Source: Negaprion brevirostris | Taxonomy: Eukaryota | Length of the DNA stretch: 64,000 nt | Reading direction: 5' to 3' | Assembly (NCBI GenBank): GCA_030324005.1 | Contig: JARDVH010000073.1 | Coordinates: forward strand, 80,449,127 to 80,513,126 | Shown: piece by piece, positions 57,001 through 60,000 of the stretch | How the letters are laid out: each line of letters begins with the position of its first letter | How positions within the stretch are numbered: the stretch's first letter is position 1 | Made by a program: the position numbers

Positions 57001-60000
57001 TCGCATGTTTCTTTGATTGGAGTTTTTGTTATTTGCCGCTCCTCCACTTTTTTTCTACCGTTACTAAACTTCTTGTCAAACTATCAGTTTTTGATACTGA
57101 GAAAGGGTTGTCCTCAAGCTTTATCTTGCATTTTCTTTTCACAGTTACTGACTGGCCAGCTATTTATTTCTAGAATTTTCTGTTTTTGTTTCAGAGTTCC
57201 AGCACTTTATTTATTATTTATATTACTTGTTTATCCCTAGCTATTGTCATTGAAACTAATGGTGATTCCTGTTGTTGGTTGATGGGTTTCCAACTTAAAT
57301 GGACATTTCAATCGCACCAGTTTTCCACCCCAAATGATACTTAGACATACTTTGGGAAAATTCTGCCCAATGTCTTCCGAATTGAAATGCACATTTTATT
57401 CATTGTACCTGCAGAATAACGTAATATAAAAGCGCAAAGACCTGTAAGCCTAAGATATGTCGCCTATAATTAGTTACCTACATCCTATGGAACAATCAAT
57501 TTTTGCTATGTATGCATTTTGTGAGAGGATTATGTTACTCATTTTTAACAAACAACTGAATGCTGCATTGAATGCAGTGAAGCTTTGCCATCTGTAGAAT
57601 TAAACTGACCAACTTTAATCATAAGAACATAAAAACATAAGAAATAGGAGCAGGAGTAGGCCATCTAGCCCCTCGAGCCTGCCCCACCATTCATTAAGAT
57701 CATGGCTGATCTGTCGTGTCTCAGTTCCACATTCCCGCCCTCTCCCCATAACCCTTAATCCCCTCGCCTATNNNNNNNNNNNNNNNNNNNNNNNNNNNNN
57801 NNNNNNNNNNNNNNNNNNNNNNNNNNNNNNNNNNNNNNNNNNNNNNNNNNNNNNNNNNNNNNNNNNNNNNNNNNNNNNNNNNNNNNNNNNNNNNNNNNNN
57901 NNNNNNNNNNNNNNNNNNNNNNNNNNNNNNNNNNNNNNNNNNNNNNNNNNNNNNNNNNNNNNNNNNNNNNNNNNNNNNNNNNNNNNNNNNNNNNNNNNNN
58001 NNNNNNNNNNNNNNNNNNNNNNNNNNNNNNNNNNNNNNNNNNNNNNNNNNNNNNNNNNNNNNNNNNNNNNNNNNNNNNNNNNNNNNNNNNNNNNNNNNNN
58101 NNNNNNNNNNNNNNNNNNNNNNNNNNNNNNNNNNNNNNNNNNNNNNNNNNNNNNNNNNNNNNNNNNNNNNNNNNNNNNNNNNNNNNNNNNNNNNNNNNNN
58201 NNNNNNNNNNNNNNNNNNNNNNNNNNNNNNNNNNNNNNNNNNNNNNNNNNNNNNNNNNNNNNNNNNNNNNNNNNNNNNNNNNNNNNNNNNNNNNNNNNNN
58301 NNNNNNNNNNNNNNNNNNNNNNNNNNNNNNNNNNNNNNNNNNNNNNNNNNNNNNNNNNNNNNNNNNNNNNNNNNNNNNNNNNNNNNNNNNNNNNNNNNNN
58401 NNNNNTGTGAACCTCCTCTGGTCTCTTTCCAAGGCCAGCACATCCTTCCTAGATATGGGGCACAAAACTGCTCACAAATGGGGTCTGACCAGACCCTTAC
58501 ACAGCCTCAGAAGTACATTCCCTTACGATCCAGGTCTCAGTCTTGAATGGTGTTGTGGTTCAGATCAGAAACTCCAAAGTGTTTTATGGAGCCTGCCTGA
58601 ATCATAAGTTTTGCATCTTGAATTTGACTAGAATAAGTATGAGGTGGTTCACCTCAGATATGATTCAAGTGACCCACTAGGGAGCTTTTATCAAATAATG
58701 TTTATTTAAGAATATAATCAGCATGTATTTTAAGAAAATTAGCAAGAACTTTTATCAATTACAAGCAAAAACAATAATGTGTAGCCCTTAACCGATGTTC
58801 CAACCAAAACCAACATCCAGTAAACAAAACCTTTCAAACAGATTTATCAGTGTGCAGGTTAAAGGTCACATGATACTGGAATTCAGTTCCCTATGTGGAA
58901 TGGTGATTTCAAATGATCTCGAAAACTCAGAGCAGCTTGTAGTCATCAGCTCCCCAAAACACCAAAACATAGATTATTTACTGGAGTGTGTCAATAAGCC
59001 TTTCTTTCAGCTAACTGATTAAACTTTCAAAGCACAACAGAGAGAGAGAGAGACTTCTTTTCCAGCTTGCTTCCAAGGTTGTCTCTAACCCTGCAGCCTA
59101 AACAAAACAAAGAACAACCCTTGTCACCTGACTGGCATACAGTTTTTTTTTCTCCTCCCTTCAATGACATCGCCTAAGACTGCGAGCATGATTTTAAAAA
59201 AACTTTTCTTAAAGGGACACCGACATGACAATGGTCTGAATAAGTCAGCACCCACGATTCCTTGAAGCTGATTCAAAGATTCCCGACCTCCCCGGTGCAC
59301 AAATTTCTCCTCGTCTCAGCTCAAAATTTCCTGAGTTTATGACCTCCTAGTTTTAGGGCGAAATTTTCCCATTGCTCCTGTCATGAGAATTGTAGCGGGC
59401 AGGAGGGCGGACCATGCAAAGAAATTTCCGGTCTAGGGATGTGCTCAGATGGAAACCCTCTTTAGTCTCCCCGGTCAGGAGAAACGAACACTTGGTATCT
59501 TCCCGTCAAACTCTTGAAGAATTTCATACATTCCAATGTGAACACCTCACATCTGTGTCGACTCCAAAGGCTATAAGCCAATTCTACTCAATGTAAGATA
59601 ATGCTGCTATCACTGGGTCAGCTGATAATAAATAATATTGTTTCTCTTGTTTATATTCTAGTCTAAATGCCTCCACTGCACAGTTTTGGAGAAATGACTG
59701 CTCCTCGGGACATAGTTGAGGATGGATCTGAAGGGGCTGTTGGACTGAAGGTCTATCTCTACCACCCCACCACTCACCCTGGTGGAAGCACCTTGGATTT
59801 CAGCTCCGGAGCGTACACAGCGGAGGAACTTTGTATTCTGGCAGCAAAGGCAAGCGGTGAGTGTTGTGATGTGCCTTTAAGGGATATCGGCATGACATCA
59901 GAAGGAGAAACCAGCCTTGGTTTCACTTAGCTTTGAGCCGACCACACACGCATAGCTCTGATGCCTTCAAGATTTCTACCCATGTATAACTGTTCTCATG

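What the first reader, a model, noticed from the sequence alone, without database searches (positions are those of the whole stretch)
59641..59862. Intact JAK2/JAK3-type kinase exon antisense inside a SYT7 intron
Seen: a 63-codon open exon with ATG, polypyrimidine tract/AG acceptor and GTGAGT donor, encoding a Janus-kinase FERM N-terminus with a JAK2-like LKVYLYH and a JAK3-like AAKASG. It lies 7.6 kb 5' of the first SYT7 exon in the window, and I found no upstream SYT7 exon in 52067-64000. Known: human SYT7 (11q12) is not linked to JAK1 (1p31), JAK2 (9p24) or JAK3/TYK2 (19p13). Inference: this is a nested or overlapping antisense JAK gene, possibly a relocated JAK3 or an extra cartilaginous-fish JAK paralog. 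It could also be an orphan duplicated exon or a scaffolding misjoin. No stops or frameshifts despite decayed surroundings suggests constraint or recent origin. No second JAK exon (expected G-I[LT]PVYH..LFAL) is visible up to 64000.
Basis: partly seen in the sequence, partly recalled or inferred. Interest (0 to 1): 0.85.

Follow-up and report, generated by a model that had tools for sequence, protein, structure and literature searches.

The report
First coding exon of shark JAK3
This is the ordinary first protein-coding exon of a shark's JAK3 immune-signalling kinase gene, and its odd position beside the nerve gene SYT7 depends on one unsequenced gap in the assembly, so it may be an assembly error.

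Summary
The exon is real. It runs 59662-59856 on the + strand, with a polypyrimidine/AG acceptor, an in-frame TAA just before the ATG at 59667, 63 codons plus one base, and a G|GTGAGT donor. It passes Pfam FERM_F1 (29 bits, cut-off 26.1). It covers the N-terminus of four full-length shark JAK proteins at 69-82% identity.

Those proteins are named "JAK2-like". In trees they lie with named JAK3 of tetrapods, and a second shark/ray set lies with JAK2. The trees have no outgroup. The exon is therefore most likely JAK3 coding exon 1, not an extra paralogue.

No second JAK exon lies in the window, so the gene runs past 64000.

Five 3' SYT7 exons are confirmed on the minus strand, but SYT7 residues 1-385 are absent. 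"Inside a SYT7 intron" is therefore an inference. A 634-N gap separates the two genes. In 5 of 5 species with chromosome-scale values for both genes, one of them a sawfish, JAK3 and SYT7 lie on sequences of different length. I rate a scaffold misjoin about 0.55 and true nesting about 0.3. Interest is low.

The parts
59641..59661 (+). Polypyrimidine tract and AG splice acceptor. This implies an upstream non-coding JAK3 exon, which was not located.
   Evidence: Read directly: tttctcttgtttatattctag. An in-frame TAA at 59664-59666 means translation cannot start upstream within this exon.
59662..59856 (+). First coding exon of the shark JAK3 orthologue. It has 5 bases of 5' UTR, an ATG at 59667, 63 codons and the first base of Gly64. 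It encodes the variable N-terminal tail (residues 1-26) and the first strands of the FERM F1 lobe (residues 27-63).
   Evidence: Searches show the open frame. Pfam FERM_F1, residues 27-62 against profile positions 1-36 of 96; 100% coverage at 69-82% identity to residues 1-65 of four shark JAK proteins of 953-1110 aa; the tblastn match ends at 59858, at KASG, where the orthologues continue with ILPVY.
59857..59862 (+). GTGAGT splice donor of a phase-1 intron longer than 4.1 kb that runs off the window.
   Evidence: One search shows the donor. In one search no match to residues 66 onwards reached better than E 0.58 anywhere in the window.
57772..58405 (.). 634-N assembly gap. It is the only link between the SYT7 contig (49405-57771) and the JAK3 contig (58406 to beyond 64000).
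   Evidence: The gap was not filled or looked up.
51802..52066 (-). SYT7 exon for the linker end and first half of C2A ([11 protein letters not shown]...NETFLFEG). It is the 5'-most SYT7 exon in the window.
   Evidence: Searches show the TTCCAG acceptor and G|GTGAGG donor. Pfam C2 at 70.2 bits; 97-99% identity to the shark, ray and skate SYT7 proteins listed.
37429..37598 (-). SYT7 exon for the second half of C2A.
   Evidence: Pfam C2 at 33.3 bits.
30573..30687 (-). SYT7 exon for the start of C2B.
   Evidence: 97-100% identity over 38 residues. One search shows the splice sites.
25547..25746 (-). SYT7 exon for the core of C2B.
   Evidence: Pfam C2 at 70.7 bits.
17720..17824 (-). Last SYT7 coding exon with its TGA stop. 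Its acceptor lies 6 bases from the N run 17831-17930.

Best explanation
The feature is the first protein-coding exon of this shark's JAK3 gene. JAK3 is the Janus kinase that, in the vertebrates studied, sits on the common gamma chain of cytokine receptors.

How it works:
- A non-coding upstream exon is spliced to the acceptor at 59661/59662.
- Translation starts at 59667.
- The exon supplies a variable tail and the first part of the FERM F1 lobe. FERM is the receptor-binding module of JAK proteins.
- The donor at 59856/59857 joins it to the next exon (ILPVY... in the orthologues), which lies beyond 64000.

Shown here: the exon anatomy, its family, its one-to-one match to full-length shark proteins, and the placement of those proteins beside named JAK3.

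Inferred: that it is transcribed, that the rest of the gene is intact in this species, and the cytokine-receptor role.

The position next to SYT7 is not a property I can vouch for. It depends on one 634-N scaffold gap, and I think it more likely a scaffolding join between unlinked contigs than a true nested gene.
For: Exon anatomy.

Family: FERM_F1 above the Pfam cut-off and JAK2 FERM chains as the best solved relatives.

Match to full-length proteins: 4 of 28 candidates passed E <= 1. All four are shark proteins of 953-1110 aa whose first 65 residues match the whole exon. Their precomputed Pfam domains include FERM, SH2 and kinase families.

The exon behaves like an orthologue:
- Identity is 69-84% to sharks, 55-60% to rays and 53% to a chimaera.
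- This lies within the 69-91% range that sharks show among themselves.
- The FERM part is better kept (33 of 37 residues against Cetorhinus) than the tail (19 of 25).
- Identity to bony-vertebrate JAK3-side proteins is 29-43%, and to JAK2-side proteins 34-35%.

In one search the 11 best hits among 240 stored proteins were all of the shark/ray/chimaera set that lies on the JAK3 side.

Trees (39 rows, quick, 28 rows, careful):
- A JAK2 clan that includes a second chondrichthyan set has support 100/100 and a stem of about 0.47.
- The chondrichthyan set that holds the exon's matches has support 100/100.
- The bony-vertebrate clan with all named JAK3 has support 95/94.
- Each clan follows the species tree, and the midpoint root falls on the JAK2 stem.

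Against real linkage:
- A 634-N gap lies between the genes.
- SYT7 residues 1-385 are missing from the window.
- JAK3 and SYT7 lie on sequences of different length in 5 of 5 species where both values are chromosome-scale. In Mb these are Pristis pectinata 35.7 vs 53.7, Protopterus annectens 1371.7 vs 836.1, Alligator mississippiensis 35.7 vs 307.6, Dromiciops gliroides 764.0 vs 280.6, and Theristicus caerulescens 6.4 vs 72.4.
- Published JAK3 neighbours shared by human and zebrafish are B3GNT3, SLC5A5, CCDC124 and KCNN1, not SYT7 (PMC3296744, passages seen).
Against: The trees have no outgroup. On the unrooted tree the exon's set, the bony JAK3 clan and the JAK2 clan meet at one node. Orthology to JAK3 therefore rests on midpoint rooting and on needing no extra gene losses.

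Only one exon is in the window, so the gene's integrity in this species is unseen. I have no transcript evidence.

On linkage:
- No same-species comparison was available for a shark. The only chondrichthyan pair is a sawfish.
- The "longest_contig" field belongs to a cluster, not strictly to the named member.
- A gap with an odd length (634 N, not 10 or 100) looks like an estimate from read pairs. That would speak for a local, real join. This is my inference about the assembler, not a test.
- The -3 position before the ATG is T, a weak start context. Batoid models and one bamboo-shark model start at the Met that aligns with residue 10.
Confidence: 0.55

Rival explanations
1. The exon has the same identity (JAK3 coding exon 1), but the scaffold is right. 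In this shark lineage JAK3 lies antisense inside the long intron of SYT7, upstream of the C2A exon. SYT7's 5' exons would then lie beyond JAK3, or beyond its first exons. The two genes would be read from opposite strands and need not interact.
For: The two genes are on one scaffold, 7.6 kb apart and on opposite strands. The gap length of 634 N is not a placeholder value, whereas other gaps in the window are 10 or 100 N; this suggests a read-pair estimate, which is my inference. Read on the minus strand, the two gap flanks carry reading frames that I recall as an earlier and a later part of one LINE-type element, in the right order and orientation. The family match is recalled, not tested. SYT7's 3' exons alone span 34 kb here, so its introns are long enough to hold a gene.
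Against: SYT7 exons lie on one side only. A sawfish and four bony vertebrates have the genes on different sequences. Placing a whole multi-exon gene into an intron of a 97-99% conserved gene without breaking it needs a rare insertional move; this is inference. Contigs that end in the same high-copy repeat are also the classic setting for false joins. No paper held JAK3, SYT7 and synteny together.
Confidence: 0.3
2. It is an orphan duplicated exon: a dead copy of JAK3 exon 1 carried into the SYT7 intron. The working gene would be elsewhere.
For: Only one JAK exon is in the window. The surroundings are repeat-rich. For example, a reverse-transcriptase remnant lies at 28030-28368, below the Pfam cut-off, and there is no CpG island near the exon.
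Against: The frame, the start codon and both splice sites are intact. Divergence from other sharks is no greater than sharks show among themselves, and it falls mostly in the variable tail rather than the FERM part. The missing second exon is explained by the window ending 4.1 kb downstream.
Confidence: 0.07
3. It is an extra JAK paralogue specific to cartilaginous fishes (or an old duplicate lost elsewhere), not the JAK3 orthologue.
For: RefSeq names these proteins JAK2-like. The unrooted tree does not by itself join the shark set to bony JAK3. Only the best 120 of 1391 hits were listed, so a more divergent third shark gene could have been missed.
Against: Among the 120 listed hits the chondrichthyan proteins form two sets only, as do bony vertebrates. 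The shark set is closer to turtle JAK3 (65%) than to any JAK2 (59-61%). This reading needs two extra gene losses. The stem joining the shark set to the bony JAK3 clan is short (0.13 + 0.036), against about 0.47 to JAK2.
Confidence: 0.05

Closest known systems
Chondrichthyan proteins annotated "tyrosine-protein kinase JAK2-like". Examples: Cetorhinus maximus P0002, Heptranchias perlo P0003, Chiloscyllium plagiosum P0004, Scyliorhinus torazame P0001, and Callorhinchus milii "JAK2" of 1111 aa, P0009.
   Same: Their first 64-65 residues align with the whole exon at 53-84% identity, with the same start and the same KASG end.
   Different: They come from other species. The window peptide carries small in-frame length differences in the variable tail. 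Only exon 1 of the window's gene is visible.
JAK3 of bony vertebrates. Named examples in the trees include Emydura, Apteryx, Alligator, Ambystoma, Rhinatrema, Tachyglossus and Dromiciops.
   Same: It lies on the same side of the long JAK2 branch. The motif GILPVY(H/N)SLFALATEDL follows the exon in the shark orthologues and in several of the bony JAK3-side proteins. The full shark protein is 60-65% identical to the named JAK3 proteins listed.
   Different: The exon region itself is only 29-43% identical. The JAK3 neighbours reported as shared by human and zebrafish (B3GNT3, SLC5A5, CCDC124, KCNN1; PMC3296744) were not looked for in the window. The only neighbour identified here is SYT7.
JAK2 (solved FERM-SH2 structures 4z32, 6e2p, 6e2q; shark JAK2 set P0023, P0028, P0034, P0041, P0061).
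   Same: JAK2 is the best solved-structure match, with LxVYLYH and AEExCI shared.
   Different: It forms a separate clan with 100/100 support that has its own shark, ray and chimaera members. Identity to the exon is 34-35%.
Nested antisense protein-coding genes inside long introns of vertebrate genes (a general class, recalled).
   Same: The orientation and position would fit if the scaffold is right.
   Different: The host gene's exons are seen on one side only, and an unsequenced gap lies between the genes.

Membership tests
Janus kinase family | N-terminal FERM domain beginning with the F1 ubiquitin-like lobe | tested here: met
   Pfam PF18379 FERM_F1 scores 29 bits against a cut-off of 26.1, with residues 27-62 on profile positions 1-36 of 96. 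JAK2 FERM chains match at E about 5e-4.
Janus kinase family | Full architecture FERM - SH2-like - pseudokinase - kinase | tested here: inconclusive
   No further JAK exon lies in the window. The matching full-length shark proteins carry precomputed Pfam families that include FERM, SH2 and kinase domains. The rest of this gene lies beyond 64000.
JAK3 orthologue group | Groups with named JAK3, apart from JAK2, in a protein tree | tested here: met
   The test used the full-length shark orthologues, because the 63-aa exon is too short for the tree. The exon is tied to that set. Caveat: there is no outgroup, and the root is taken at the midpoint and by fewest losses.
JAK3 orthologue group | Conserved neighbours B3GNT3, INSL3, SLC5A5, CCDC124, KCNN1 | not tested
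   B3GNT3, SLC5A5, CCDC124 and KCNN1 come from PMC3296744 (passages); INSL3 beside JAK3 is recalled. I held no reference sequences for these genes. Only 1.26 kb lies between the gap and the exon, and the 44 open frames of 110 aa or more across the window include nothing I could assign to them by eye.
JAK2 orthologue group | Groups with named JAK2 | tested here: not met
   A separate chondrichthyan set (1127-1128 aa) sits at the base of the JAK2 clan. The exon is 34-35% identical to that set.
Nested gene within a host intron | Host-gene exons on both sides of the nested gene on unbroken sequence | tested here: not met
   SYT7 residues 386-672 map to 17720-52066. Residues 1-385 have no match better than E 0.8 anywhere in the window (rows printed for 3 of the 7 SYT7 queries, two of them 672-aa isoforms). 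A 634-N gap intervenes.
Synaptotagmin-7 (the neighbour) | Tandem C2A and C2B domains with close identity to named SYT7 | tested here: met
   Pfam C2 matches 3 of the 5 exons. The first exon is 97-99% identical to the shark, ray and skate SYT7 proteins listed and 92% to the one named human SYT7 in the listing. All five exons match at 83-100%.

The most novel reading that the evidence does not exclude
In this shark lineage the whole JAK3 gene has left its old neighbourhood and now lies antisense inside an intron of the highly conserved neuronal gene SYT7. That would be a rare gene-sized insertion that left both genes working. Their transcription could then interfere in cells that express both.
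Probability: 0.27. Interest if true: 0.4.

Novelty: already known. Interest (0 to 1): 0.17.

Why it matters
It matters little as it stands. The gene is already annotated in several sharks, rays and a chimaera, so the exon adds only one more species' copy.

There are two small practical points:
- The automatic names "JAK2-like" or "JAK2" for the shark, ray, chimaera, lungfish, gar and sturgeon or paddlefish proteins on the JAK3 side of the tree are probably wrong. This can mislead counts of immune genes in early jawed vertebrates.
- The SYT7-JAK3 junction at 57772-58405 is a candidate misjoin that anyone using this scaffold for synteny should check.

If the junction proved real, it would be a tidy example of a large gene nested in a conserved host gene. 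It would not open a new question.

Tried and rejected
- Further JAK exons: tblastn with four full-length shark proteins, word size 2 and E up to 10, found only chance-level hits.
- SYT7's 5' exons, including the one ending SDLVNSLTSEMLM: searched with seven chondrichthyan SYT7 proteins and not found in the window. An exon of about 135 bases could hide in the 634-N gap. I did not try to recover the gap.
- Measuring the repeat across the gap from another copy: the left flank has one other partial copy (25212-25288), which itself ends at a gap. The right flank has none. No spacing could be derived.
- Transcript evidence from an unnamed 1110-aa hit on a 3.9-kb contig (P0006): it is only 49% identical in the exon region, so it is not this species.
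- Rooting the tree: I held no named JAK1 or TYK2 sequences.
- Literature, five searches: (JAK3, SYT7, synteny) returned no paper. In the others I saw only listings, plus passages of two papers. The passages from PMC6936713 mention sharks only in connection with IL7 synteny, and "shark" and "cartilaginous" do not occur in the main text of PMC3296744.
- CpG island or promoter near the exon: none, with CpG observed/expected at most 0.53 across 52-64 kb.
Every search was exon by exon.
Synteny in other shark assemblies therefore stayed unchecked.
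Full report
**Source of the window.** The window is 40% G+C with strong CpG depletion (observed/expected 0.25) and 16 N runs. Its coding pieces are closest to shark and ray proteins. I take it for a shark scaffold, not human. N runs were left as they are.

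On the + strand a pyrimidine-rich tract ends in AG at 59660-59661. The exon begins at 59662, and an in-frame TAA (59664-59666) comes directly before the ATG at 59667. The frame stays open for 63 codons, and G|GTGAGT follows at 59856/59857-59862. The exon is thus 195 bases with 5 bases of 5' UTR, and it ends in phase 1.

**The peptide belongs to the JAK family.**
- It passes the curated Pfam threshold for FERM_F1 (29 bits against 26.1; residues 27-62 on profile positions 1-36 of 96).
- Its best solved relatives are three JAK2 FERM-SH2 chains (E about 5e-4). Two JAK1 chains match at E about 1, out of 5 matches at E up to 10.

**It is part of a known, conserved gene.**
- Searching longer proteins gave 4 hits at E <= 1 among 28 candidates. 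All are shark proteins of 953-1110 aa, match 100% of the exon at 69-82% identity, and have E values from 7.7e-23 to 2e-14.
- Their precomputed Pfam domains include FERM, SH2 and kinase families.
- The tblastn match of these proteins to the window stops at 59858, at KASG, where they continue with ILPVY. All other hits in the window have E 0.58 or worse.
- The next exon is therefore beyond 64000, and the first coding intron exceeds 4.1 kb.

**Which JAK.** With the basking-shark protein as query, 1391 proteins passed E 1e-20 among 6831 candidates, and 120 were listed. The chondrichthyan entries fall into two sets.
- The first set is 1100-1111 aa when full length, is 78-100% identical to the query, and includes the exon's matches.
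- The second set is 1127-1128 aa and 59-61% identical.
- Between them in the listing come coelacanth (71%), lungfish (68%) and named JAK3 of turtles, birds and amphibians (60-65%).

I built trees from named, non-human rows only and left out all nine unnamed hits of that listing. One tree had 39 of the 120 rows (quick search) and one had 28 rows (careful search). Both give the same picture.
- A JAK2 clan with the second chondrichthyan set at its base has support 100/100 and a stem of about 0.47.
- The first chondrichthyan set has support 100/100 and a stem of 0.13.
- A bony-vertebrate clan has support 95/94 and a stem of 0.036. It holds every named JAK3, plus coelacanth, lungfish, a gar "JAK2" of 1117 aa and a sturgeon "JAK2" of 1115 aa; one search also places a paddlefish "JAK2-like" of 1115 aa there.
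- Each clan mirrors the species tree.

The trees are unrooted. With the root at the midpoint, on the JAK2 stem, the first set is the JAK3 orthologue and no gene loss is needed. Any other root needs two losses. A published analysis pairs JAK2 with JAK3 as sisters after the first genome duplication (PMC3296744, passages seen).

**Tying the exon to that set.** The exon itself is too short for the tree. The alignment and BLAST results tie it to the first set.
- Identity is 69-84% to sharks, 55-60% to rays and 53% to a chimaera.
- Identity is 29-43% to bony JAK3-side proteins and 34-35% to JAK2-side proteins.
- The 11 best of 240 stored proteins all belong to the first set.
- Its distance from other sharks lies within the range sharks show among themselves. 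Changes concentrate in the tail (19 of 25 residues kept against Cetorhinus) rather than the FERM part (33 of 37). A working orthologue would look like this.

AAKASG is shared by the shark and chimaera members of the first set shown, while the rays shown have AAQASG or AARASG. The mixed flavour reflects slow change in these lineages, not a hybrid or extra gene.

**The neighbour.** Five SYT7 exons lie on the minus strand, with good splice sites, at:
- 51802-52066
- 37429-37598
- 30573-30687
- 25547-25746
- 17720-17824

Three of the five pass Pfam C2. The first is 97-99% identical to the shark, ray and skate SYT7 proteins listed. They cover residues 386-672 of the 672-aa isoform. Residues 1-385 have no match in the window better than E 0.8. 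I searched exon by exon and made no joined model.

**Is JAK3 nested in SYT7?** The window cannot show it. SYT7 exons lie on one side only, and the two genes sit on different contigs joined by 634 N (57772-58405).

Outside evidence is indirect. It comes from the length of the sequence on which each protein cluster was seen:

| Species | JAK3 (Mb) | SYT7 (Mb) |
|---|---|---|
| Pristis pectinata | 35.7 | 53.7 |
| Protopterus annectens | 1371.7 | 836.1 |
| Alligator mississippiensis | 35.7 | 307.6 |
| Dromiciops gliroides | 764.0 | 280.6 |
| Theristicus caerulescens | 6.4 | 72.4 |

The two genes are on different sequences in 5 of 5 species with chromosome-scale values for both. I dropped Manacus candei because its JAK3 contig is only 33 kb. 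No shark had both values. JAK3 sits on sequences of 39-45 Mb in two sharks and 122 Mb in a third, and SYT7 on 199-266 Mb in two catsharks, but these are different species.

Published JAK3 neighbours shared by human and zebrafish do not include SYT7. No paper held JAK3, SYT7 and synteny together.

Two points favour a real join. The gap length looks like an estimate rather than a placeholder. The flanks read, on the minus strand, like successive parts of one LINE-type copy. The family match is recalled and untested, and a repeat-driven false join would look the same.

Moving a multi-exon gene into an intron of a gene this conserved without harm is rare. Weighing this, I put a misjoin at about 0.55-0.6 and true nesting at about 0.3.

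**Mechanism.** If expressed, the exon provides the start codon, a variable tail and the first part of the FERM F1 lobe, which belongs to the module that anchors JAKs to cytokine-receptor tails. For JAK3, loss causes severe combined immunodeficiency in humans (PMC3296744). In zebrafish il7r, jak1 and jak3 act in one pathway in T-cell development (PMC6936713, passages). A role with the common gamma chain in sharks is inferred from orthology only.

**Verdict.** This is a real and ordinary exon of an already annotated gene, the shark JAK3, which is often mislabelled JAK2-like. The striking context is unproven and more likely an assembly artefact.

Noticed in passing
No window coordinates. Proteins P0002-P0005, P0007-P0009, P0012, P0035, P0047 and P0104.: Automatic names look wrong across slow-evolving fishes. 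Proteins named JAK2 or JAK2-like in sharks, rays, elephant shark (which has two "JAK2"), lungfish, gar (two "JAK2"), sturgeon and paddlefish fall on the JAK3 side of the tree.
   Followed up: partly
window 57620-57771 and 58406-58506: Both flanks of the 634-N gap look like pieces of one interspersed repeat. Read on the minus strand, they carry frames (ISRKDVLALERDQRRFT, then IGEGIKGYGERAGMWN) that I recall from the end of a LINE-type ORF. Another partial copy at 25212-25288 also stops at a gap. Contigs in this assembly seem to break in this repeat.
   Followed up: partly
window 17824-17931: The last SYT7 exon begins 6 bases from the N run 17831-17930. Its first codon reads Arg (AGA) where the shark and ray SYT7 proteins printed have Ile. 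This is either a real change or low-quality sequence at a contig edge.
   Followed up: no
window 28030-28368 (+): A reverse-transcriptase remnant: Pfam RVT_1 at 24.4 bits, below the cut-off of 29.6. It lies inside a SYT7 intron.
   Followed up: partly
window 3187-3681 (-), 3774-4220 (-), 5231-5983 (+): Three open frames share a similar stretch (RHFTAF(R/Q)SQ...QMI...). They are copies of one repeat family in both orientations, downstream of SYT7. The frame at 4644-5294 (+) has a Cys-rich stretch (…CSQCGLLYIGETK…) that I recall from the endonuclease of Penelope-like elements, but Pfam gave no match.
   Followed up: partly
window 19828-20367 (-): A 179-aa open frame that resembles, from memory, a Harbinger-type transposase. 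Pfam gave no match at E 0.01.
   Followed up: partly
window 59030-59050: A short (GA)n run lies about 600 bases upstream of the JAK3 exon. There is no CpG island anywhere in 52-64 kb, so the promoter and 5' UTR exon remain unlocated.
   Followed up: no
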